Virus record (IMG/VR): IMGVR_UViG_3300045988_016630
Coordinates: 1-19,710 of that record
DNA: 19,710 nt
DNA from: a virus
Strand: one strand, 5' to 3'
Position numbers and translations under genes: made by a program. The notes beneath the pieces are model-generated. The model did not search any database, was not told the DNA's origin, and saw nothing but the letters and a program-made list of their open reading frames with translations. This document shows positions 1 to 19,710 of this stretch, piece after piece. Numbering within the stretch: the first letter of the stretch is position 1; every line of letters starts with the position of its first letter.

Positions 1-106
1 AGGGGTATGGATTTGTGTGAAGATTTTCCCTTGTGGTTTTTTTTATTTGTGTATTATTTTTTTGTGTTCTGTGTGGTCCTTGACGTTTTGTTTTGTTCAT
101 GCCTCT

Positions 107-135
107 ATTATATTTTTTTTACGCCTGCATGTCAA
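107..135 (-). promoter_or_regulatory. Consensus sigma70/sigmaA-type promoter in ITR-L, firing outward toward position 1
   Basis: The minus strand reads TTGACA (135..130), a 17-nt spacer, then TATAAT (112..107). An A-rich UP-like tract (aaaataaaaaaag) precedes it. Only about 100 nt remain to the genome end. Confidence 0.6.
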
Positions 136-212
136 CTTTTTTTATTTTCGGGCGTGTCGTTTTTTTATTGACGCTGTGTCAATGGTTGTATATGCAACAA
201 TCTGCGTCCGGC

Positions 213-276
213 TAAGTTACGGTTACGTAACCGTAGCTTACTTACCGTCCGGCCGGTAACTGTCTTTTATTTTTTT
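213..276. promoter_or_regulatory. ITR palindrome cluster: 28-bp near-perfect palindrome plus an adjacent hairpin with a T-run
   Basis: TACGGTTACGTAACCGTA (218-235) is a perfect 18-bp palindrome, extendable to 213-240 with one T:G mismatch. TTACCGtccggcCGGTAA (242-259) follows, then ctgtcttttattttttt (T-run to 276) on the inward-reading strand. Confidence 0.5.
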
Positions 277-314
277 GCCTTGTTTTGTTTTTGGGCGTGC
301 TGCCCGTTTGTTTG

Positions 315-323
315 TGTTATGGT
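315..323 (+). promoter_or_regulatory. Candidate inward extended -10 promoter in ITR-L (TGtTATGGT)
   Basis: TGtTATGGT lies about 35 nt upstream of the ATG at 358. It fits the TGnTAnnnT pattern seen at other intergenic sites in this genome. No -35 element was seen. The RBS gagggaaaggaaaaa follows. Confidence 0.3.
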
Positions 324-357
324 GTAGTTATCCGCTTCGAGGGAAAGGAAAAATAAA

Positions 358-558
358 ATGATTAACGATAGCATCATCAAGGATTACGTCGAGGATTACA
401 TCCTGAACAGCGATCAGCAGCTCGATGGCTTCGATATTGATGCGATTGTTGAGGATCTGCATCATGTGGCTTTGGTCAATGGTATGACCATTGAGGAATA
501 TGCCGATTGTGATTCGTTCCCGTCTGATGATTTTATTGAAGCGTTTGAGGAGGCGTGA
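358..558 (+). CDS. Small, highly acidic hypothetical protein (66 aa); DNA-mimic or anti-defence candidate
   Basis: ATG with an ITR-encoded purine-rich RBS (gagggaaaggaaaaataaaATG). Counted by eye: 19 Asp/Glu against 1 Lys. It is the only plus-strand gene and is followed by a strong terminator. Confidence 0.75.
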   Translation: MINDSIIKDYVEDYILNSDQQLDGFDIDAIVEDLHHVALVNGMTIEEYADCDSFPSDDFIEAFEEA

Positions 559-2876: not shown

Positions 2877-4088
2877 TTAGAACGCTGGCGGATTAGACTT
2901 GCCATCCCACACACTCAATAGCGAATATGCCTGATTATACCGTGTCGTATACGGGCCGAACGGGAACGTGCTCAGAATGTTGTTTTTGAGCTGTTCGAGG
3001 TTCGACGCCTTCGGCACCTTCAACGCGTTCGCCGGTGACTGGTGATATGCCGTCACCCAAAGAATCTGCATTTTCGTGTCGCTATACTCTTTGGGGTAGT
3101 CTGCGTAGTCTTCCGCGAACTGTTTGCGCTGTCCGTCACGCGACTCACTACGTGCCGCCCACGTTCTGAACGCGGCCGCCTCCACTGAGGTGAGGGAACG
3201 TTTGAACGTGCCGCCCGACTCCATGAGCGCGGCTATTTCAGGCGCGGCGGTTTTGAATGCCTCATATCCGGTTGGGTCGGCGGTTTTCATGGCGTTGAGC
3301 ACTTGCAGGCGGCGTTCGAAACTCCATTGCGCAATGCCGATACCTTGCAAATTGGCGGCTTCGACTGCATCCCAGCGCAAACCGGACTCAACCGTGCCGA
3401 CCACATAGAGCGCGTACGAGTTTTCCGTACTGACCGAGCTGGACGGGTGCCCCTGTCCTTGCGAGTCGGACGGCTGGGATTGTGACGCTTTTTCCGAAAA
3501 ATTATTGGCAGTAGTACGGTAAAAGATCCGTGTCCGCGTCCCGGCATTGTCGGTCTCGTGCAAGTAGAGGTTGTCGCCCTGCCAGTGTATCCACGCTCCC
3601 CCGCGTGACGTGTCGGGGTTGCCCTGGTTGTTGTTGCCGGTCGGATTGTCCACGTCCGGTTTCGGCATGGTACGGGGATGCAAGTAGCCTAATAGTCCGG
3701 TGGTGGGGAACCATTTCAACGCGCTGGCGTCGGGGTTTTGTGTGATAACGTAGATTTGCTCGTCTTTTACGCCATCTGCCGCGACTATCGCCACGTGCGT
3801 ATAGGGAGTATACGTGCTATATCCCCATATGGCCACGTCTCCCGCTACGGGCGAGTACCCATTGGCTGGAATGCGTTCGTACACTTGTTCGCACCGTGCT
3901 GACACGGGGTATGCGGTATATAAGCCGCCCGCATAACCGGTGGGGGTTATGCAATCCTGGATACTCATGCCGTACATATCCATGGAATATTTCGCCCATA
4001 GGTCCCAGCATTGCGCCCCGTATGCGCCGTCCATATCCCAGTAGCGGCCTTGCGTCTGCCTAATCCAATCTTCAAAAGTAATAGCCAT
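2877..4088 (-). CDS. Virion-associated peptidoglycan hydrolase (phi29 gp13 position): N-terminal CHAP domain plus C-terminal putative lysozyme/transglycosylase-like domain
   Basis: The CHAP motifs DGAYGAQCWDLW and THVAIVA are closely similar to those of the endolysin. The C-terminal half contains VESGLRWD...GIGIAQWS, which resembles an E-S...G-x-x-Q glycosidase motif (weak call). It lies between the tail fibre and the ATPase, as gp13 does in phi29. Confidence 0.8.
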   Translation of the reverse strand: MAITFEDWIRQTQGRYWDMDGAYGAQCWDLWAKYSMDMYGMSIQDCITPTGYAGGLYTAYPVSARCEQVYERIPANGYSPVAGDVAIWGYSTYTPYTHVAIVAADGVKDEQIYVITQNPDASALKWFPTTGLLGYLHPRTMPKPDVDNPTGNNNQGNPDTSRGGAWIHWQGDNLYLHETDNAGTRTRIFYRTTANNFSEKASQSQPSDSQGQGHPSSSVSTENSYALYVVGTVESGLRWDAVEAANLQGIGIAQWSFERRLQVLNAMKTADPTGYEAFKTAAPEIAALMESGGTFKRSLTSVEAAAFRTWAARSESRDGQRKQFAEDYADYPKEYSDTKMQILWVTAYHQSPANALKVPKASNLEQLKNNILSTFPFGPYTTRYNQAYSLLSVWDGKSNPPAF

Positions 4089-4113
4089 GCCACCATTATA
4101 GTGGCATGGCTAT
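4081..4113 (-). other. 13-bp perfect hairpin spanning the start codon of the virion lysin gene, with TATAAT in the loop
   Basis: atagccatgccac (4081-4093) pairs with gtggcatggctat (4101-4113). The loop on the minus strand is TATAATG. The minus strand reads TATAAT-ggtggc-ATG(4088). No usable Shine-Dalgarno lies at normal spacing. Confidence 0.6.
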
Positions 4114-8595: not shown

Positions 8596-8629
8596 ATAAT
8601 GGAGAGAGCTATATAACTCTCTCCATTAT
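8596..8629 (-). other. Intercistronic 13-bp perfect hairpin between the tail-knob and portal genes
   Basis: ataatggagagag (8596-8608) pairs with ctctctccattat (8617-8629). On the minus strand it is followed by ttatatt. Possible partial terminator or mRNA-stability element. Confidence 0.5.
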
Positions 8630-10883: not shown

Positions 10884-10925
10884 TAAAAAATAATAGGTGT
10901 GGATAAAAGTCTATCCACACCTATT
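10884..10925 (-). terminator. Rho-independent terminator immediately after the major capsid gene
   Basis: 14-bp perfect stem aataggtgtggata (10892-10905) pairs with tatccacacctatt (10912-10925). On the minus strand it is followed by attttttagg. Confidence 0.85.
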
Positions 10926-13005: not shown

Positions 13006-13014
13006 ATTATATCA
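13006..13014 (-). promoter_or_regulatory. Candidate late promoter, extended -10 TGaTATAAT without a recognisable -35
   Basis: The minus strand reads catGaTATAAT in full context cgacaTGaTATAATttt. It lies about 36 nt upstream of the scaffold ATG and immediately downstream of the early terminator. Confidence 0.5.
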
Positions 13015-13020
13015 TGTCGC

Positions 13021-13055
13021 AAGAAAATAAAATGACCCCGCAATCACGCGGGGTC
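13021..13055 (-). terminator. Rho-independent terminator ending the early operon
   Basis: gaccccgc (13034-13041) pairs with gcggggtc (13048-13055) around a 6-nt loop. On the minus strand it is followed by attttattttctt. Confidence 0.85.
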
Positions 13056-13195
13056 GAAACTGTCTTATGTGAGCGCGGGTTGAAAATCGTAGGGCACTAC
13101 CGCCACGATAGTGATGTTCACGGTCGGCGGCATTCTCAGCCGTGGCAGTCCGACTCATGTTGCTCCCAGTCGAAAATCGACGCTCAGGAAGACAC
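13021..13195 (-). ncRNA. Candidate structured non-coding RNA (about 170 nt) with its own promoter and terminator; possible packaging-RNA analogue
   Basis: No credible ORF. Extended -10 TGcTATAAT lies at 13200-13208. The predicted 5' end UGUCUU-CC-UGAGCG (13194-13181) is complementary to CGCUCA-CAU-AAGACA (13075-13061) just before the terminator hairpin. An internal helix ACUGCCAC/GUGGCGGU is possible (13149-13142 with 13106-13099). Folded by eye only. Confidence 0.4.
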
Positions 13196-13199
13196 AAGT

Positions 13200-13208
13200 A
13201 TTATAGCA
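13200..13208 (-). promoter_or_regulatory. Extended -10 promoter TGcTATAAT overlapping the DNA polymerase stop codon
   Basis: The minus strand reads ggtcaTGcTATAATacttgtg. The TAA stop of the polymerase lies inside the hexamer. Confidence 0.45.
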
Positions 13209-14652
13209 TGACCATTGTTCCGTAATCATCCATGACTTGCGTTCCATGCCTAAACTTCTCGTAGGGGATGGGCTGGGAAAACATGTTTCCGGCCATACAT
13301 ACGTCAACCTCTCCGTCTTCCCTCCATCCCTGATACCGGTTCATACCCAGGATAGTCAGTTTTTCGTATCGTGCGGCGATTTTCCACTTGCCTAGTTCGG
13401 TCGGGTGTATGTCGCATGATTTCACCGGCTCCCAACCGCTCAAAATACAACCGTCCGTATTCGCGTACAATAGCCGATCGGCGTTCGCATGGCACACGTC
13501 CATAAGCTTGCGGCGTGCATAAGCGTTGACCCACACGGGCACTGGCAGATAGTCGGTTTTCAGATTCGATCCCTCGCGCTGGGCGACATCCCAGTCCAAT
13601 GTTATGCCGTCTTTGGAGAAGGGGAGCATGACAGAACCCTTGGGCAGACTCGCCATTTTGCCGACCAGGGCGTTCATGATCAGTTTCGCCATCTGCCGTT
13701 TCTCGCCCGTCGTCCGTTGTTTCAACTCCCCCCATTCATCGATGAACGAACGGAAGAAACCTTTGGAGCGTCGGAATTTCCATCCGCGTACATGCCTATA
13801 TATGCTCACGTCATAGTTTTCATAAAGCAATTGTTGGTCAATGTCGGTCAAGACGCGCGTGACATATCCACGGGTTGAGGTGAGACGGTTCAGTCCGTAT
13901 ATACTGCGATTATCAAGTAGAAATGGGTAGCCGTTTGGCTTGAGTTCCGCACGAAACGTGAGTTCATCGCAATGCAATGGCATGTCATCATCTTGACTGT
14001 ATGCGCCTTCGTACGGTTCCGGTTCGCCCCACGGCAACCACTCGTCCCGCAAAATGCTCGGATACATTGAGTTGCAGTCAACGTCAATAGCCTTGCCGTA
14101 TGCCCCCTCTCTTGCGACCATGAAACCGCCGATATAGGCGTCATGCAACGATTTTTTATCCTCCGGTTCGAGCTGTGGAAATTTGTCGTAAAACCACTTC
14201 CACTCGCCGGACGCGAACGCCTCCATACTCGCGCCACCCGCCGTTATCTTACACAAACCACGGTTATCGTATTCGCGCAGAATGTTGAGCAATTGCATGT
14301 CAGGCATGGAGAGACGGCAATTCTCACGCAACAGATTCGATATATCGAAAAAACGTGCCGAGTTCTCACGGTCGATACGTGCCGTGAAGCTGAAAAACTT
14401 CCCCTTTTTTGAGATGATGGCGTCCCAGCTCAAGTTAGAGTTGTGTTCGTTGTGGGGCAATGCGTGTACGACGTGCGCTATAAATGGGTCAAGCAGTTCG
14501 GGACTAGTCACGTAGACGGTGAGTTTGCCGCCCGTCATTATGTACGCCAAAAGACTCTTAGGCGCGGTGACGTCACGCAAGACGGTTCCGTCCGTAAAGC
14601 GTATGACGTTATCCGCGCACCACAATCCAACTCGATTGTCTTGCCTGGTCAT
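13201..14652 (-). CDS. Protein-primed family B DNA polymerase, phi29 gp2-like (483 aa)
   Basis: Motif A DVDCNSMYPS, motif B KLIMNALVGKMAS, motif C LYANTDGC, and a KxY-like LGMNRY. TPR1/TPR2-like regions are collinear with phi29 (LPWGEPEPYEG vs LPYGEPIVFEG; FIDEWGELK vs FIDKWTYIK). Start set to ATG 14652, because the upstream ORF extension overlaps the terminal-protein gene. Confidence 0.93.
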   Translation of the reverse strand: MTRQDNRVGLWCADNVIRFTDGTVLRDVTAPKSLLAYIMTGGKLTVYVTSPELLDPFIAHVVHALPHNEHNSNLSWDAIISKKGKFFSFTARIDRENSARFFDISNLLRENCRLSMPDMQLLNILREYDNRGLCKITAGGASMEAFASGEWKWFYDKFPQLEPEDKKSLHDAYIGGFMVAREGAYGKAIDVDCNSMYPSILRDEWLPWGEPEPYEGAYSQDDDMPLHCDELTFRAELKPNGYPFLLDNRSIYGLNRLTSTRGYVTRVLTDIDQQLLYENYDVSIYRHVRGWKFRRSKGFFRSFIDEWGELKQRTTGEKRQMAKLIMNALVGKMASLPKGSVMLPFSKDGITLDWDVAQREGSNLKTDYLPVPVWVNAYARRKLMDVCHANADRLLYANTDGCILSGWEPVKSCDIHPTELGKWKIAARYEKLTILGMNRYQGWREDGEVDVCMAGNMFSQPIPYEKFRHGTQVMDDYGTMVML

Positions 14653-14680
14653 GGTATAACTATCCTTTATTTGCCGTCCG

Positions 14681-15643
14681 CTACTTTTCCAGTGCGCCAG
14701 CTTCCGCCAACCACCTGTCAAACTGCTTGCGGGATCGCTGATAGCCCTCGCTGTTGTCACGGAACACTGAAGTAAACCCGTGCCGAACTGGGTCATATAC
14801 CGTCCAGTCGAACACGATTCTGGGTGCGTCCGTCTGCTCGATGACCGCACGTTTTTGTGCGGCTGAGAGTTGACGGAATCGTTTCAGCCGTTTCGAGCCG
14901 AGCGTGGTTGCCAAGATCTTCTCGAACACCTCATAACGCCCCCGACTCATATAGGACGGCCAATCATGATCACCATACAATTCTTTAGTCTGTTTGCTTG
15001 TCTTCCGGTTTTTGGACGGTTTGCTTTTTCGTTTGGTGCGCAACCCTAGTATTTCGGCGGCATCATGCATTTGCTCAAGCAGTTCGTTACGACGCCCGCT
15101 TTCCAGTTGGGAGCGCACGAACGCTTCGTCACTCAACACGTTGGTCATTTGCAGAAAATCAGTGAGCTTCGATGGAATGATCTGATTACGTCCGAAACCC
15201 TCACCGGTGGTTCCGGTGATTTCAGCAACGCGTTGGTCGTACACGCTTTTCGCGGGCACGGCCTGAGCCTTATTCCATTCATTGATCTTGCGCCGTGCCG
15301 CATTGATTTTCCGCTGCTGCTGACGCAAGAGTTTACGTCGCTTCGCCACCGGCTCCGCGTCAATCTGCGCGTTAGTGATGGGTGTGCGCTGTGCAAACAT
15401 GTAGTCTTTCTTCGTGGGCTTTTCCACGGCACTGGCATGGTAGGAGGTTGCTTTCGCTTCCGCTATGGCCTGCCTCTTCTGCCGTTCCCACTCTTTGCCT
15501 AAAGTTTTGGCGATGTTGACTAGTTGTTGGTCCGCGGTTTTGGCGAGATTCGAGCGGGAGTAAGCGCCAAGCTGTTTGATATTACGGGCGGCGCGTGCTT
15601 GCGCGGCCTGACGTGCCTTGACATGCTTTTGCTTCCGAGACAT
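14681..15643 (-). CDS. Candidate terminal protein (320 aa, basic), by position upstream of the polymerase
   Basis: Immediately upstream of the protein-primed polymerase, as phi29 gene 3 is. Lys/Arg-rich with a basic N-terminus (KQKHVKARQAAQARAARNIK). The covalent-priming lifestyle is implied by the ITRs and the pPolB. No residue-level homology could be verified. Confidence 0.6.
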   Translation of the reverse strand: MSRKQKHVKARQAAQARAARNIKQLGAYSRSNLAKTADQQLVNIAKTLGKEWERQKRQAIAEAKATSYHASAVEKPTKKDYMFAQRTPITNAQIDAEPVAKRRKLLRQQQRKINAARRKINEWNKAQAVPAKSVYDQRVAEITGTTGEGFGRNQIIPSKLTDFLQMTNVLSDEAFVRSQLESGRRNELLEQMHDAAEILGLRTKRKSKPSKNRKTSKQTKELYGDHDWPSYMSRGRYEVFEKILATTLGSKRLKRFRQLSAAQKRAVIEQTDAPRIVFDWTVYDPVRHGFTSVFRDNSEGYQRSRKQFDRWLAEAGALEK

Positions 15644-15713: not shown

Positions 15714-15722
15714 ATTATAGCA
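15714..15722 (-). promoter_or_regulatory. Candidate extended -10 promoter TGcTATAAT upstream of the terminal protein-polymerase pair
   Basis: The minus strand reads gctTGcTATAATaactg, 4 nt after the SSB stop codon and about 70 nt upstream of the ATG at 15643. The leader contains a 7-bp hairpin (15670-15687). Confidence 0.45.
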
Positions 15723-15725
15723 AGC

Positions 15726-16160
15726 TCACTTGGTTTCCTCGTCCACCGGCTCGATGCTGAAAAACTTGAAGCCACGACGGGAACGACGTTCAACCACCTT
15801 GATGCACAGCGGTTCCGTCCACATGTTCGGCGTGCCGAAGATACCGAACATAGTGTTCAGTCCCGCCGCGAGAGTGGGGGAGGTGGCCGCGTACGCCTTA
15901 TTATCGTCGGTCACGATAATGACGCGCACGGTGTTGGAGATTTCGCCCGTCTGATCGTCGGTCACCTGCACGGCCTGGGCGACTGCGTTCGTCATGTTCA
16001 GCGGCTCGTTGAGGTGTTCGTCAAGCTTTTCGGCGTTCTGCAATGCCGAGTAGAGCTTAATCTTGCCTTCGCGAGTGCTTGTGTCGATGAAGTGTTGGAC
16101 GGTGCCGAGTTCGGTGTTCTCGGTGTTGAACGCGACGAGTGCGGTATTAGTGTTTTCCAT
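15726..16160 (-). CDS. Single-stranded DNA-binding protein, phi29 gp5-like
   Basis: It starts MENTN like remembered phi29 p5. GKIKLYSA vs GQIKIFNA, AVAQAVQVTDDQTGE vs AIAQYKQVSDTYGD, and C-terminal KVVERRSRRGFKFFSIEP vs KVVQGTSSKGNVFFSLQ. Syntenic position. RBS aggaaagg. Confidence 0.7.
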   Translation of the reverse strand: MENTNTALVAFNTENTELGTVQHFIDTSTREGKIKLYSALQNAEKLDEHLNEPLNMTNAVAQAVQVTDDQTGEISNTVRVIIVTDDNKAYAATSPTLAAGLNTMFGIFGTPNMWTEPLCIKVVERRSRRGFKFFSIEPVDEETK

Positions 16161-16228: not shown

Positions 16229-16543
16229 CACGTCTTCGTTATTTTCAACGTCGGCGTGTCTATTTTTTGTGTGCTCTTCTGGATTCCATTCTTGAGGTTC
16301 CTCAAAGGTAGCATATTTGTAGAACGTTTCCTCATTCATTGAGACTTTTTGCGAAAAAATGTTGATGGAACGCGGAATAAAATTCGGAAACAATCTCTTC
16401 GCACGGATTGAATATGCGCGAGCGTCCTTAAGGCGTCCGTCGATAACGTGCTCCGCTCCCATGAAGTCGCCGTCCACCAATTCCATGCCTTTCAGCACGG
16501 CATAGACGCGCGTGCGGAAAATTTCGGTTTTGGTTCTAGCCAA
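16226..16543 (-). CDS. Hypothetical early protein (105 aa), possible phi29 p6-like dsDNA-binding protein
   Basis: TTG start with a strong RBS (GGGAGGtaagaaTTG). It sits directly upstream of the SSB, as phi29 gene 6 does, and has similar size and an acidic C-terminal tail. The resemblance is loose (IFRTRVYAVLKGMELVDGDF vs ITKTTVNVAKMVMVDGEV). Confidence 0.55.
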   Translation of the reverse strand: MARTKTEIFRTRVYAVLKGMELVDGDFMGAEHVIDGRLKDARAYSIRAKRLFPNFIPRSINIFSQKVSMNEETFYKYATFEEPQEWNPEEHTKNRHADVENNEDV

Positions 16544-19122: not shown

Positions 19123-19353
19123 TCAAACAAGCGAAACTTTGACCATGCCAACCATTGTGCCGTCAAGATCAAACGTGGCATTATCAATATCCACACTCAC
19201 ATTACGCCCAACATAAGCGCTACGAACATGAGACAACACGCCATCTAACGACGCTTTCAACGACACTGTATGAAACATGCCACTAGGCTTCACGCAATCG
19301 GGCAGAATCTCGAATACCTGAAAACCGTTTTCGGTGATATTAAAATACCACAT
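19123..19353 (-). CDS. Hypothetical early protein (76 aa), first gene of the right-end operon
   Basis: The ATG and RBS are supplied by ITR-R, identical to those of 358..558. No motif recognised. Confidence 0.7.
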   Translation of the reverse strand: MWYFNITENGFQVFEILPDCVKPSGMFHTVSLKASLDGVLSHVRSAYVGRNVSVDIDNATFDLDGTMVGMVKVSLV

Positions 19354-19387
19354 TTTATTTTTCCTTTCCCTCGAAGCGGATAACTAC

Positions 19388-19396
19388 ACCATAACA
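19388..19396 (-). promoter_or_regulatory. Candidate inward extended -10 promoter in ITR-R, likely start of the early operon
   Basis: Mirror copy of 315..323. It lies upstream of the shared RBS and the ATG at 19353. Confidence 0.3.
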
Positions 19397-19434
19397 CAAA
19401 CAAACGGGCAGCACGCCCAAAAACAAAACAAGGC

Positions 19435-19498
19435 AAAAAAATAAAAGACAGTTACCGGCCGGACGGTAAGTAAGCTACGGTTACGTAACCGTAACTTA
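19435..19498. promoter_or_regulatory. Mirror copy of the ITR palindrome cluster in ITR-R
   Basis: Reverse complement of 213..276, as a consequence of the perfect ITR. Confidence 0.5.
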
Positions 19499-19575
19499 GC
19501 CGGACGCAGATTGTTGCATATACAACCATTGACACAGCGTCAATAAAAAAACGACACGCCCGAAAATAAAAAAAG

Positions 19576-19604
19576 TTGACATGCAGGCGTAAAAAAAATA
19601 TAAT
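19576..19604 (+). promoter_or_regulatory. Consensus sigma70/sigmaA-type promoter in ITR-R, firing outward toward position 19710
   Basis: TTGACA (19576-19581), spacer tgcaggcgtaaaaaaaa (17 nt), TATAAT (19599-19604). The upstream A tract is cgaaaataaaaaaag. TATAAT-agaggc-ATG puts an ATG (19611) at the expected transcription start. Confidence 0.6.
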
Positions 19605-19710
19605 AGAGGCATGAACAAAACAAAACGTCAAGGACCACACAGAACACAAAAAAATAATACACAAATAAAAAAAACCACAAGGGAAAATCTTCACACAAAT
19701 CCATACCCCT

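What the first reader, a model, noticed from the sequence alone, without database searches (positions are those of the whole stretch)
13021..13208. ORF-less promoter-to-terminator unit (about 170 nt) at the early/late junction: candidate structured ncRNA, possibly a pRNA analogue
About 180 nt between the polymerase stop (13201) and the late promoter (13006-13014) hold no credible ORF. The only ORF is a TTG-initiated 61-aa frame with no RBS that runs through the terminator and the late promoter.

The region has its own signals:
- An extended -10 TGcTATAAT (13200-13208).
- A clean rho-independent terminator (13034-13055 plus a U-run).

The predicted 5' end, UGUCUU-CC-UGAGCG (13194-13181), is complementary to CGCUCA-CAU-AAGACA (13075-13061), which lies 5 nt before the terminator hairpin. 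The transcript ends could therefore close a domain of about 130 nt. Inside it, ACUGCCAC can pair with GUGGCGGU, a small UCGA-UUU-UCGA hairpin is possible, and CGAUUUUC occurs twice.

phi29-family motors (gp10-like portal and gp16-like ATPase, both present here) use a pRNA of about 170 nt whose 5' and 3' ends form a helix. No pRNA is otherwise evident in this genome.
Basis: partly seen in the sequence, partly recalled or inferred. Interest (0 to 1): 0.85.

Follow-up and report, generated by a model that had tools for sequence, protein, structure and literature searches.

The report
Likely packaging RNA in Bifidobacterium phage
Between the DNA polymerase gene and the late genes of this small phi29-like Bifidobacterium phage lies a self-contained gene for a conserved, folded RNA of about 168 bases whose shape closely matches the "prohead RNA" that Bacillus phage phi29 needs to package its DNA, an RNA so far known only from Bacillus phages.

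Summary
Window 13024-13208 (minus strand) is a promoter-to-terminator unit that encodes no protein.

It is present in all 90 related genomes I collected: gut Bifidobacterium picoviruses, with polymerase down to 63% identical. It is as conserved as the flanking genes.

Covariation supports the fold strongly. Of the pair cells, 93% form standard pairs, 37 of 55 pairs show compensatory changes, and 0 of 500 shuffles reach the observed values.

I derived the fold without reference to pRNA. It has:
- a 23-bp helix closing the 5' and 3' ends;
- a three-way junction;
- one arm made of a 9-bp helix, a 7-nt 5' bulge and a 4-bp hairpin;
- a second arm that is a hairpin whose loop (UGGC) is complementary to the bulge (GCCA), with G-C changed to A-U in 10 sequences and never mismatched;
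- a 3' terminator hairpin.

This is element for element the architecture of phi29 and GA-1 pRNA. The gene layout matches too: it lies after the terminal-protein and polymerase genes, and its own promoter overlaps the end of the upstream ORF.

Sequence similarity to pRNA is nil and Rfam's model does not match. That model also misses the genuine GA-1 pRNA, so its silence says little.

The existence of the RNA is shown. A role in packaging is inferred, at about 0.6. The main rival is a regulatory RNA at the early/late boundary.

The parts
13200..13208 (-). Extended -10 promoter TGCTATAAT of the RNA gene; overlaps the last Leu codon (CTA) and the stop codon (TAA) of the polymerase gene
   Evidence: In 79 relatives the third bases of the last two polymerase codons (ATG, CTA) are invariant, while the other third positions in the last 60 nt are 39-97% conserved. 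It is also present in the most divergent relatives (L075, L083). The phi29 pRNA promoter A1 has the same TGCTATAAT.
13193..13195 (-). Predicted transcription start, at the first bases of the closing helix
   Evidence: The distance from the -10 element to the start of helix P1a is 5-6 nt in 80 of 81 sequences. This is an inference; it has not been mapped.
13189..13194 (-). P1a 5' strand UGUCUU (outer part of the A-like helix); pairs with 13061-13066
   Evidence: helix 1: 96% of cells paired, 5 of 6 pairs with changes on both sides.
13180..13185 (-). P1b 5' strand GAGCGU; pairs with 13071-13076 (GCGCUC)
   Evidence: helix 2: 100% of cells paired; G-C to A-U in 10 sequences and C-G to U-A in 7.
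13171..13178 (-). P2 5' strand GAUUUUCG (first CGAUUUUC copy); pairs antiparallel with 13082-13089 (second copy), with three central U.U mismatches
   Evidence: helix 3: the flanking pairs co-vary, and the centre becomes Watson-Crick in L073, L083, L075 and other divergent relatives. C.A alternates with U.G at the adjacent position. A local hairpin remains an alternative.
13165..13167 (-). P3 5' strand GGG; pairs with CCC at 13092-13094; last step of the A-like helix before the three-way junction
   Evidence: helix 4: 100% of cells paired; G-C to A-U at two positions (2 and 3 sequences).
13150..13159 (-). P4 5' strand CAUG-A-GUCGG (C-like helix, 4+5 bp with a 1-nt bulge); pairs with 13119-13127
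   Evidence: helices 5 and 6: 7 of 9 pairs have changes on both sides.
13143..13149 (-). 7-nt 5' bulge ACUGCCA (CE-loop-like); its last four bases GCCA are complementary to UGGC of the P6 loop
   Evidence: helix 7: 97.4% of cells paired; pair 53/104 is G-C 70, A-U 10, G.U 8, with no mismatch..
13128..13142 (-). P5 hairpin CGGC-UGAGAAU-GCCG (E-like: 4-bp stem, 7-nt loop); the most conserved stretch of the RNA
   Evidence: Nearly invariant in 88 distinct sequences. Loop positions 4 and 7 co-vary, G..U with A..C.
13095..13113 (-). P6 hairpin CACUAUCG-UGG-CGGUAGUG (D-like); it abuts the 3' strand of P3 with no unpaired base
   Evidence: helix 9: 99.5% of cells paired; 7 of 7 counted pairs have changes on both sides.
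13061..13094 (-). 3' strands of P3, P2, P1b and P1a (CCC, CGAUUUUC, GCGCUC, AAGACA), completing the 23-bp closing helix
13024..13055 (-). Domain-II-like intrinsic terminator: GACCCCGC-GUGAUU-GCGGGGUC followed by AUUUUAUUUU
   Evidence: In one search (helix 10), 6 of 8 pairs have changes on both sides. The loop is GUGAUU in nearly all sequences and GCGAUU in three; 4 of its 6 bases are invariant.
13006..13014 (-). Next promoter (TGATATAAT), serving the late genes (scaffold-like ORF starting about 12970, then the capsid gene). Not part of the RNA; it marks the unit's downstream boundary
   Evidence: Conserved in the relatives, including as TGGTAGAAT and TGGTATGAT in L083 and L075.

Best explanation
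This is a discrete, abundant class of phage small RNA, about 168 nt long (window about 13193 to 13026, minus strand). It is transcribed from its own extended -10 promoter and ended by its own intrinsic terminator. Most likely it is the prohead/packaging RNA (pRNA) of this phi29-like Bifidobacterium phage.

Proposed mechanism, by analogy with phi29:
1. The three-way-junction domain binds the connector end of the prohead.
2. The GCCA bulge of one molecule pairs with the UGGC loop of its neighbour, closing a ring.
3. The long 5'/3' helix projects outward and docks the small gp16-type ATPase, which pumps the terminal-protein-capped genome into the head.

Shown here: the RNA gene, its fold, the promoter and terminator signals, and its conservation.

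Inferred: expression, ring formation (the bulge-loop contact could equally be within one molecule), binding to proheads, and any role in packaging.
For: 1. It is a real structured RNA.
- 90 homologues match the covariation model at 134-194 bits.
- On 88 distinct sequences, 93.2% of pair cells form standard pairs, 37 of 55 pairs have compensatory changes, and 0 of 500 shuffles reach the observed values. Slid controls give 32-53% paired.
- The RNA is as conserved as the flanking genes: mean pairwise identity 81.3%, against 80.5% for the polymerase 3' end and 77.9% for the next gene.
- It is not coding.

2. The architecture matches pRNA. Shapiro strings:
- This RNA: H7 S4 B7 S5 B1 S4 | H3 S8 | 23-bp closing helix.
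- phi29: H6 S4 B9 S4 B1 S5 | H5 S6 | 22 bp.
- GA-1: H6 S4 B6 S6 B1 S4 | H3 S8.
- By the HIT and coarse-grained tree-edit distances the fold is at least as near to GA-1 pRNA (HIT 44) as phi29 pRNA is (HIT 49); by the full distance it is further (38 against 29).
- In the full-tree measure, none of 1076 folds of shuffled sequence or other genome windows is as close to phi29 pRNA.

3. The bulge-loop complementarity sits where the pRNA CE-loop/D-loop contact sits: the last four bases of the bulge, next to the E-like helix, pairing with the D-like loop.
- All 10 sequences with A in the bulge have U in the loop. Fisher p about 1e-8, not corrected for relatedness.
- At least 3-4 of these changes are independent, for example L213 against its sisters L075 and L237.

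4. The gene layout matches.
- phi29: TGCTATAAT promoter, transcription start at the first base of the A helix, domain I, a linker, and a domain II that is the terminator hairpin.
- GA-1: a promoter overlapping the end of the upstream ORF, then the pRNA, a terminator and the next promoter, all co-directional and downstream of the polymerase gene.
- Gene order here is SSB, terminal protein (assigned by position), polymerase, RNA.

5. The motor parts are present: a gp16-type terminase (phrog_2150, E = 6e-61), an upper collar connector (phrog_2038, E = 1e-54) and a phi29-type capsid protein. The connector N-terminus is basic, MSKRNNARKAAHW.

6. It is the only internal non-coding stretch longer than 100 nt in the window.

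7. pRNAs are known to share only about 12% sequence but a conserved fold (PMC5066667).
Against: - There is no sequence similarity to any known pRNA. Rfam RF00044 gives no hit even at E <= 10. This is weak evidence, because RF00044 also misses the annotated GA-1 pRNA and the PumA1 genome, and scores Nf at only 47 bits against a threshold of 100.
- Three of the four bulge-loop pairs are nearly invariant and so uninformative. Nine sequences carry an uncompensated mismatch at the A-U pair.
- The co-varying loop base can also close the P6 hairpin (G-C changed to A-U in 2 sequences).
- A three-way junction with a loop-bulge contact is not unique to pRNA. My background for fold similarity was random folds, not other natural RNAs.
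- In two other picovirus clades (BadAztec, MT835826), a structured RNA at the same locus has no evident promoter between it and the next gene, and only L228 has a T-run after it. There it looks like a 5' leader.
- There are no expression or biochemical data.
Confidence: 0.6

Rival explanations
1. A trans-acting regulatory or protein-binding small RNA that has nothing to do with packaging. For example, an RNA made at the early/late boundary that titrates or guides a phage or host factor (RNA polymerase, a repressor, a nuclease or a defence protein). Its resemblance to pRNA would then be convergent.
For: - The gene lies exactly between the replication genes and the late genes.
- The invariant P5 loop, the bulge and the terminator loop (invariant apart from one base in three sequences) look like binding surfaces.
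- There is no sequence homology to pRNA.
- Three-way junctions with loop-bulge contacts occur in many RNA classes (general knowledge).
Against: - This reading does not explain the helix-by-helix match to phi29 and GA-1 pRNA.
- It does not explain the shared synteny and gene layout.
- No candidate partner or target was found.
- In the phi29-like Bacillus phages the only annotated non-coding RNA is pRNA (PMC11476376).
Confidence: 0.2
2. A cis-acting leader or antitermination element (in the manner of lambda nut/boxB or HK022 put). The folded RNA would modify the transcribing polymerase, or bind a phage factor, so that transcription reads through the terminator at 13055-13034 into the late genes.
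For: - In the BadAztec and MT835826 clades the equivalent RNA runs straight into the next gene, with no promoter in between.
- Av-1 has a promoter, a short leader and a strong terminator directly before its late genes.
- The P5 loop GAGAA/GAAAA is a GNRNA-type pentaloop like boxB. This resemblance is from my own recall and was not tested.
Against: - In this family a conserved extended -10 promoter (TGATATAAT at 13006-13014) follows the terminator in every member, the most divergent included. The late genes therefore do not need read-through.
- The terminator stem is kept by compensatory changes and has a full T-run.
- A 23-bp helix joining the 5' and 3' ends is typical of a stable free RNA, not of known nut or put sites.
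Confidence: 0.12
3. It is only the structured 3' untranslated end of the polymerase mRNA plus a terminator (stabiliser or insulator), or a DNA-level element such as regulator binding sites, for example the two CGATTTTC copies.
For: - Read-through from the polymerase gene must also cross this region.
- CGATTTTC occurs twice.
- phi29 has regulator (p4) binding sites at its early/late junction (general knowledge).
Against: - 37 pairs show compensatory changes on one strand, including G.U pairs that would be A.C mismatches on the other strand, so selection acts on RNA pairing.
- The two repeat copies change together so as to stay complementary to each other, not identical (L073, L083, L075).
- A dedicated promoter is kept at nucleotide level inside the polymerase stop region.
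- A stabiliser needs only a hairpin.
Confidence: 0.05

Closest known systems
phi29 prohead/packaging RNA (pRNA; Rfam RF00044), Bacillus phages phi29, PZA, Nf, M2, B103, SF5
   Same: - Host genome type: about 19 kb, inverted terminal repeats, protein-primed type B polymerase, gp16-type ATPase, gp10-type connector.
- Size: about 168 nt here against 174 nt.
- Promoter TGCTATAAT, with the transcription start at the first base of the end-closing helix.
- Domain I: closing helix of 22-23 bp; three-way junction; a 9-bp helix with a 1-nt 5' bulge; a 7-9-nt 5' bulge; a 4-bp hairpin with a 6-7-nt loop; and a second hairpin abutting the closing helix.
- Four-base complementarity between the 3' end of the bulge and the second hairpin's loop.
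- A linker, then a terminator hairpin as domain II.
- The gene lies downstream of the terminal-protein and polymerase genes, on the same strand.
   Different: - No detectable sequence similarity, and no RF00044 hit.
- The junction has 10 unpaired bases instead of 4.
- The closing helix carries symmetric internal loops (including UUU/UUU) instead of the CCA and single-base bulges.
- The gene is internal, followed by the late operon on the same strand, rather than at the genome end.
- The host is an actinobacterium.
- Function is untested.
GA-1 pRNA (Bacillus phage GA-1, annotated misc_RNA 1719-1879)
   Same: - The closest fold: H6 S4 B6 S6 B1 S4 | H3 S8, against H7 S4 B7 S5 B1 S4 | H3 S8 here. 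Coarse tree distance is 2.
- An internal, co-directional gene.
- Its promoter overlaps the end of the upstream ORF, it has its own terminator, and the next promoter follows immediately.
- Like this RNA, it is invisible to RF00044.
   Different: - The GA-1 fold used here is a single-sequence minimum-free-energy prediction.
- In GA-1 three small ORFs lie between the polymerase gene and the pRNA gene.
- No sequence similarity.
Structured RNAs at the same locus in other picoviruses: Bifidobacterium asteroides phages BadAztec1/BadAargau2, and the MT835826 clade from human faeces
   Same: - A promoter at or just after the polymerase stop codon: TGCTATAGT/TGCTATAAT in the BadAztec group, TTGACA-17-TACAAT in the MT835826 clade.
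- An RNA of about 115 nt closed by a long 5'/3' helix. BadAztec uses the same UGAGCG...CGCUCA as P1b here.
- Compensatory changes between relatives.
- The MT835826 clade has a co-varying helix, a 7-nt 5' bulge, a 4-bp hairpin (CGGC-GAAGA-GUCG), and a second hairpin whose loop region (UGUA) is complementary to the bulge (UACA).
   Different: - The covariation model R1 does not detect the BadAztec or MT835826 RNAs.
- No evident promoter separates the RNA from the next gene, and only L228 has a T-run after it.
- There are too few distinct sequences to fix the BadAztec fold.
lambda nut boxB / HK022 put antitermination RNAs
   Same: - Position upstream of a terminator at a boundary between temporal gene classes.
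- A conserved purine-rich GNRNA-like loop.
   Different: - Those elements are one or two short hairpins within an mRNA leader and have no helix closing the two ends.
- Here a conserved promoter follows the terminator.
- No N-like or Nun-like protein was identified.
- The resemblance is from recall and was not tested.

Membership tests
pRNA (prohead/packaging RNA of phi29-like phages) | Encoded by a phi29-like phage with a gp16-type packaging ATPase, a gp10-type connector and protein-primed replication | tested here: met
   - PHROG hits: terminase phrog_2150 (E = 6e-61), upper collar connector phrog_2038 (E = 1e-54), lower collar, tail protein, major head protein, SSB.
- Type B polymerase PF03175, and PF25622 Phi29_MCP in relatives.
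- Exact 360-bp inverted terminal repeats.
pRNA (prohead/packaging RNA of phi29-like phages) | Domain I of about 120 nt closed by a long helix (A) between the 5' and 3' ends, interrupted by bulges or internal loops | tested here: met
   The 134-nt domain is closed by P1a+P1b+P2+P3, 23 bp in all. Each helix has compensatory changes. P2 has three U.U mismatches in most members, and a local hairpin is an alternative.
pRNA (prohead/packaging RNA of phi29-like phages) | Three-way junction carrying (i) helix C, a 5' bulge (CE loop) and hairpin E, and (ii) hairpin D | tested here: met
   P4 (4+5 bp), a 7-nt bulge, P5 (4 bp, 7-nt loop) and P6 (8 bp, 3-nt loop) occur in the same 5'-to-3' order, and P6 abuts the closing helix. 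The Shapiro strings are parallel to those of phi29 and GA-1. Covariation is seen in P4 and P6.
   GCCA pairs with UGGC in 97.4% of cells. One pair co-varies (G-C 70, A-U 10, G.U 8, none mismatched; p about 1e-8, not corrected for relatedness). Two pairs are nearly invariant, and one has 9 mismatches. Whether the contact is between molecules or within one cannot be told from sequence.
pRNA (prohead/packaging RNA of phi29-like phages) | 3' domain II hairpin after a single-stranded linker; own promoter and own terminator | tested here: met
   A 5-nt linker is followed by an 8-9-bp hairpin and a T-run. Its stem co-varies and its loop is almost invariant. In phi29, domain II is likewise the terminator hairpin. 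The promoter is conserved at nucleotide level. The signals are predicted, not mapped.
pRNA (prohead/packaging RNA of phi29-like phages) | Match to the Rfam covariance model RF00044 | tested here: not met
   No hit at the gathering score or at E <= 10 on 451 nt. Control: phi29 scores 145 bits, but Nf scores only 47 bits, and the GA-1 pRNA region and the PumA1 genome give no hit at E <= 0.001. The model covers only close relatives of phi29, so this test discriminates poorly.
pRNA (prohead/packaging RNA of phi29-like phages) | Bound to proheads as a ring and required for DNA packaging (RNase-sensitive) | not testable with these tools
   This needs biochemistry or cryo-EM.
nut/boxB-type or put-type antitermination RNA | A cis element in the leader of the operon it controls, with no promoter between it and the regulated genes | tested here: not met
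   A conserved extended -10 promoter (13006-13014) lies between the terminator and the late genes in every family member. The feature is met in the BadAztec and MT835826 clades.
Protein-coding small ORF | Codon periodicity of substitutions and indels in multiples of three | tested here: not met
   Variability by frame position is 0.113, 0.142 and 0.127. Of 192 indels, 189 are 1 nt long.

The most novel reading that the evidence does not exclude
The RNA is not a packaging RNA at all. It is a new class of trans-acting phage RNA, shared by several clades of gut picoviruses, that sits at the early/late boundary and governs the switch to late expression or counters a host factor. Its pRNA-like fold would be convergent, or pRNA itself would descend from such a regulator. 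The evidence does not exclude this, because every functional argument rests on shape and position.
Probability: 0.2. Interest if true: 0.8.

Novelty: new variant of a known kind. Interest (0 to 1): 0.78.

Why it matters
pRNA is the only known case of an RNA acting as a structural part of a viral DNA-packaging motor. It is also a workhorse of RNA nanotechnology. Both the 2016 pRNA review (PMC5066667) and the 2024 review of phi29-like phages (PMC11476376) describe it as confined to phi29 and related Bacillus phages.

Whether other phi29-like phages use an RNA has never been settled. They carry the same truncated ATPase.

A pRNA-shaped RNA that is strongly conserved in abundant human-gut Bifidobacterium phages (more than 170 polymerase clusters at 90% identity, one with 1,209 member sequences) would have three consequences:
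- It would place the RNA-dependent motor in the common ancestor of Firmicute and Actinobacterial picoviruses.
- It would supply a set of natural sequence variants of the three-way junction and the kissing contact.
- It would make the question directly testable, because cultured phage-host pairs exist (BD811P1-3 on B. dentium; BP1 on B. pseudocatenulatum).

It also shows that the Rfam pRNA model is too narrow to find even known pRNAs.

Tried and rejected
- **Rfam** at the gathering score and at E <= 10: nothing relevant.
- **tRNA/tmRNA scan:** none found.
- **Coding potential:** stop-free frames exist on both strands, but there is no codon periodicity and the indels are 1 nt long. Rejected.
- **Metagenome scan** for the conserved 17-mer CGGCTGANAANGCCGCC: 120 hits, all chance matches in unrelated contigs, and none matched the model. 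The scan was wasted.
- **Covariation model R1** against phi29, BadAztec1, Av-1, BadAargau2, MT835861 and MT835826: no hits. The family as modelled is limited to the BD811/BP1-like clade.
- **BadAztec fold:** there are only two distinct sequences and the core is invariant. One closing helix and the 3' hairpin co-vary, but the core fold is unresolved.
- **MT835861:** no gap after the polymerase gene, so the RNA is not universal at this locus.
- **The "packaging RNA" annotated in the Av-1 GenBank record** (16295-16402): it folds no better than shuffled sequence (z = +0.83). It is not a useful comparator.
- **Local UCGA-UUU-UCGA hairpin:** compatible with the data, but its outer pair conflicts with a co-varying P1b pair, and the divergent relatives favour the long-range P2 pairing.
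- **Extending the bulge-loop contact to a fifth pair** (U.G): rejected. That loop base co-varies within P6 instead, and 5 divergent sequences are mismatched.
- **Pairing of the P5 loop with the CGAUUUUC copies or with the terminator loop:** examined by eye; not maintained in L075. Rejected.
- **Mutual-information scan** for other long-range contacts: only the C.A/U.G pair next to P2 stood out.
Full report
**What the window is.**
- The 19,710-bp window is a complete phi29-like (picovirus) genome with exact 360-bp inverted terminal repeats. All long ORFs lie on the minus strand.
- Its closest database relatives are Bifidobacterium phages BP1 and BD811P1-3 and a human-faecal contig, at 74-82% nucleotide identity.
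- PHROG searches identify SSB, a gp16-type terminase/ATPase, upper and lower collar proteins, a tail protein, the major head protein and an endolysin. The polymerase is a type B enzyme (PF03175).
- The order of transcription is: early genes, SSB, a 320-aa ORF (terminal protein by synteny with Av-1), polymerase, the region in question, a small acidic protein, the capsid protein, and so on.

**Checking the observation.**
- TGNTATAAT occurs three times in the genome, against 0.43 expected, always on the gene strand. The other two sites are the late promoter at 13006-13014 and one ahead of the putative terminal-protein gene at 15714-15722.
- The single-sequence fold is -64.1 kcal/mol, z = -3.2.
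- Rfam finds nothing at its gathering scores, and nothing relevant at E <= 10. There are no tRNA or tmRNA genes.

**Conservation.**
- I collected relatives through the polymerase protein from IMG/VR (79 loci), from GenBank phages and from ENA/Logan assemblies.
- Every one has a gap of about 225-233 nt between the polymerase gene and the next gene, and a homologue of the element.
- Mean pairwise identity is 81.3% for the RNA, 80.5% for the last 300 nt of the polymerase gene, and 77.9% for the first 300 nt of the next gene.
- The third bases of the last two polymerase codons (ATG, CTA) are invariant, whereas the other third positions in the last 60 nt are 39-97% conserved. The TATAAT box that contains the TAA stop is TATAAT or TATGAT in every sequence. 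This suggests a nucleotide-level constraint, meaning a promoter rather than only a protein C-terminus.
- The distance from the -10 element to the first base of the closing helix is 5-6 nt in 80 of 81 sequences. The transcript should therefore begin at the helix.
- The region is not coding. There is no 3-base periodicity of variability, and 189 of 192 indels are single bases, even though stop-free frames exist.

**The fold.**
I derived helices from the alignment, built covariation model R1, and re-aligned all homologues to it (A4; A7). On 88 distinct sequences:
- 93.2% of pair cells form standard pairs;
- 37 of 55 pairs have changes on both sides (310 cells);
- no shuffle out of 500 reaches any of the observed measures;
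- sliding the partners by 1-3 columns drops pairing to 32-53%.

The helices are:
- P1a: UGUCUU with AAGACA.
- P1b: GAGCGU with GCGCUC.
- P2: the two CGAUUUUC copies paired antiparallel. There are three U.U mismatches in most members, but Watson-Crick pairs in L073, L083, L075, L229, L232 and L236.
- P3: GGG with CCC.
- P4: CAUG-A-GUCGG with CCGAC-CGUG.
- A 7-nt 5' bulge, ACUGCCA.
- P5: CGGC-UGAGAAU-GCCG.
- P6: CACUAUCG-UGG-CGGUAGUG, which abuts P3.
- A 5-nt linker, then the terminator hairpin.

However, its outer pair conflicts with the co-varying P1b pair, and it has almost no covariation of its own. It may be an alternative conformer.

**The bulge-loop contact.**
- The last four bulge bases, GCCA, are complementary to UGGC (the P6 loop plus its 3' closing base).
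- Across 88 sequences this 4-bp contact is paired in 97.4% of cells.
- The G-C pair is G-C in 70 sequences, G.U in 8 and A-U in 10, and is never mismatched. All ten sequences with A in the bulge have U in the loop (Fisher p about 1e-8, uncorrected for relatedness).
- The A-U state arose several times. L003 has it, while its sister L002 has G.U. L213 has it, while its sisters L075 and L237 have G-C. It also occurs in L080 and in the L073/L083-like clades.
- Two pairs are essentially invariant and so uninformative. Nine sequences have U.U or A.C at the A-U position.
- The loop C/U can alternatively close P6.
- Overall the contact is supported but not proven. Sequence cannot tell whether it forms within one molecule or between molecules.

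**Comparison with pRNA.**
The Rfam alignment of phi29 pRNA and the phi29 sequence show:
- promoter A1 with the same TGCTATAAT;
- a transcription start at the first base of the A helix;
- a domain I consisting of an A helix of 22 bp, a junction, a C helix of 5+4 bp with a 1-nt 5' bulge, a 9-nt 5' bulge, an E helix of 4 bp with a 6-nt loop, a UUU spacer, and a D helix of 6 bp with a 5-nt loop that abuts helix A;
- a linker, and a domain II that is the terminator hairpin followed by UUUUAU.

The Bifidobacterium phage RNA reads, in the same order: 23 bp; junction; 4+5 bp with a 1-nt 5' bulge; a 7-nt 5' bulge; 4 bp with a 7-nt loop; a 5-nt spacer; 8 bp with a 3-nt loop abutting the closing helix; a linker; the terminator.

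In phi29 the intermolecular contact uses the last four bases of the bulge (A45-C48) and the D loop (G82-U85). Here the complementary bases occupy the same positions.

The annotated pRNA of GA-1 folds (single-sequence minimum free energy) to H6 S4 B6 S6 B1 S4 | H3 S8. That is almost identical to H7 S4 B7 S5 B1 S4 | H3 S8 here.

Tree-edit distances are:

| Pair | Full | HIT | Coarse |
|---|---|---|---|
| This RNA vs GA-1 | 38 | 44 | 2 |
| phi29 vs GA-1 | 29 | 49 | 3 |
| This RNA vs phi29 | 41 | 57 | 5 |

In the full-tree measure, none of 500 shuffled-sequence folds or 576 other genome-window folds is as close to phi29 pRNA. The caveat is that this background consists of random folds, not other natural RNAs.

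The GA-1 pRNA gene also has the same layout: a promoter overlapping the end of the upstream ORF, its own terminator, the next promoter immediately after, and the same direction as the polymerase gene, downstream of it.

Reviews state that pRNAs share only about 12% sequence but a conserved fold, that the CE and D loops pair intermolecularly (with two G-C pairs seen by NMR), and that pRNA is known only from phi29 and related Bacillus phages (PMC5066667, PMC4201828, PMC11476376).

**Why the missing Rfam hit says little.** RF00044 scores phi29 at 145 bits. It scores Nf at only 47 bits, below its threshold of 100. It does not report the annotated GA-1 pRNA, or anything in the PumA1 genome, at E <= 0.001.

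**Other clades.**
- *BadAztec1/BadAargau2* (B. asteroides phages; polymerase about 31% identical to the window's). They have TGCTATAGT/TGCTATAAT at the polymerase stop codon, then an RNA closed by UGAGCG...CGCUCA (the same sequence as P1b here). There are compensatory changes in the next helix and in a 3' GC-rich hairpin. No T-run and no promoter precede the next gene.
- *The MT835826 clade.* It has a consensus promoter and a 117-nt RNA with a 19-bp closing helix. Inside are a co-varying 6-7-bp helix, a 7-nt 5' bulge (AGUACAA), a 4-bp hairpin (CGGC-GAAGA-GUCG, which is CCCC-GAAGA-GGGG in L228), and a second hairpin whose loop region UGUA is complementary to the bulge's UACA. Again this RNA runs straight into the next gene.
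- These observations broaden the phenomenon. They also give the leader/antitermination rival its best argument.
- Within the window's own family, though, the terminator and a second, conserved promoter separate the RNA from the late genes. So the RNA must act as a free molecule, or else not on late transcription in cis.
- MT835861 has no gap at this locus. Av-1 has a small ORF and then a promoter, a short leader and a terminator. The "packaging RNA" annotated in the Av-1 record is not detectably structured.

**Verdict.**
- That this is a genuine, independently signalled, structured small-RNA gene is established as far as sequence analysis can establish it (about 0.95).
- That it is the functional counterpart of pRNA is the best-supported mechanism (about 0.6). 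The grounds are the element-by-element architectural match, the correctly placed and partly co-varying bulge-loop complementarity, the shared gene layout and synteny, the presence of the phi29-type motor proteins, and the absence of any other candidate in the genome.
- It is not shown. No sequence homology, expression data or biochemistry is available.
- If it is a pRNA, it is the first well-supported one outside the Bacillus phages.

Noticed in passing
window 1-360 and 19351-19710: The genome ends are an exact 360-bp inverted terminal repeat. Inside it a perfect TTGACA-17-TATAAT promoter faces outward (135 to 107 on the minus strand; mirror copy 19576 to 19604 on the plus strand). It could give only an A-rich run-off transcript of about 100 nt. 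The repeat also holds hairpin-plus-T-run sites at 242-259 and 292-306.
   Followed up: partly
window 15714-15722 (minus strand): A third TGCTATAAT lies between the SSB gene (15726-16160) and the 320-aa ORF at 14681-15643 (terminal protein by synteny). It suggests a promoter class (extended -10, no -35) used for the terminal-protein/polymerase genes, the RNA and the late genes. This class is distinct from the perfect sigma-70 consensus promoters at 16614-16586 and in the terminal repeats.
   Followed up: no
window 13132-13138 (P5 loop UGAGAAU): Loop positions 4 and 7 co-vary: G..U in most sequences, A..C in about 25, G..C in 2. They are only two bases apart, so this is not a hairpin pair. It could be an isosteric wobble-type contact, or joint recognition by a partner.
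   Followed up: partly
window 13042-13047 (terminator loop GUGAUU): The terminator loop is GUGAUU in nearly all collected sequences (GCGAUU in three), while 6 of the 8 stem pairs show compensatory changes. A plain terminator would not need a fixed loop, so the loop probably contacts something.
   Followed up: no
window 13171-13178 and 13082-13089: The repeated CGAUUUUC is explained by the two copies pairing with each other, with a UUU/UUU internal loop. A competing local hairpin is also possible, so the two may be alternative conformers.
   Followed up: yes
window 4081-4113, 8596-8629, 10892-10925, 569-599: There are long perfect hairpins (14-15-bp stems) between late genes, and a bidirectional terminator near the left end. 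They are probably terminators or processing sites.
   Followed up: no
window 13201-14850: The polymerase ORF as listed (549 aa, GTG start) is probably over-extended at its 5' end. More than 100 database homologues are called at 482-487 aa.
   Followed up: no
L086 12690-12853 (minus strand), L088; L091 2790-2906, L218-L228: Two other picovirus clades (the B. asteroides phages BadAztec/BadAargau, and the MT835826-like gut phages) carry a promoter and a conserved, end-closed structured RNA directly after the polymerase gene. In these clades the RNA runs on into the next gene with no promoter in between.
   Followed up: partly
L217 820-980 (GA-1 pRNA), L216 (PumA1), L214 (Nf): Rfam RF00044 ("3WJ core of Phi29 pRNA") does not report the annotated GA-1 pRNA or anything in PumA1, and it scores Nf below its own gathering threshold. 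The family model is too narrow for discovering new pRNAs.
   Followed up: yes
L087 16295-16402 and 4470-4612 (Actinomyces phage Av-1): The "packaging RNA" annotated in the Av-1 record folds no better than shuffled sequence (z = +0.83). Separately, Av-1 has a promoter, a leader of about 60 nt and a strong terminator immediately before its first late gene.
   Followed up: partly
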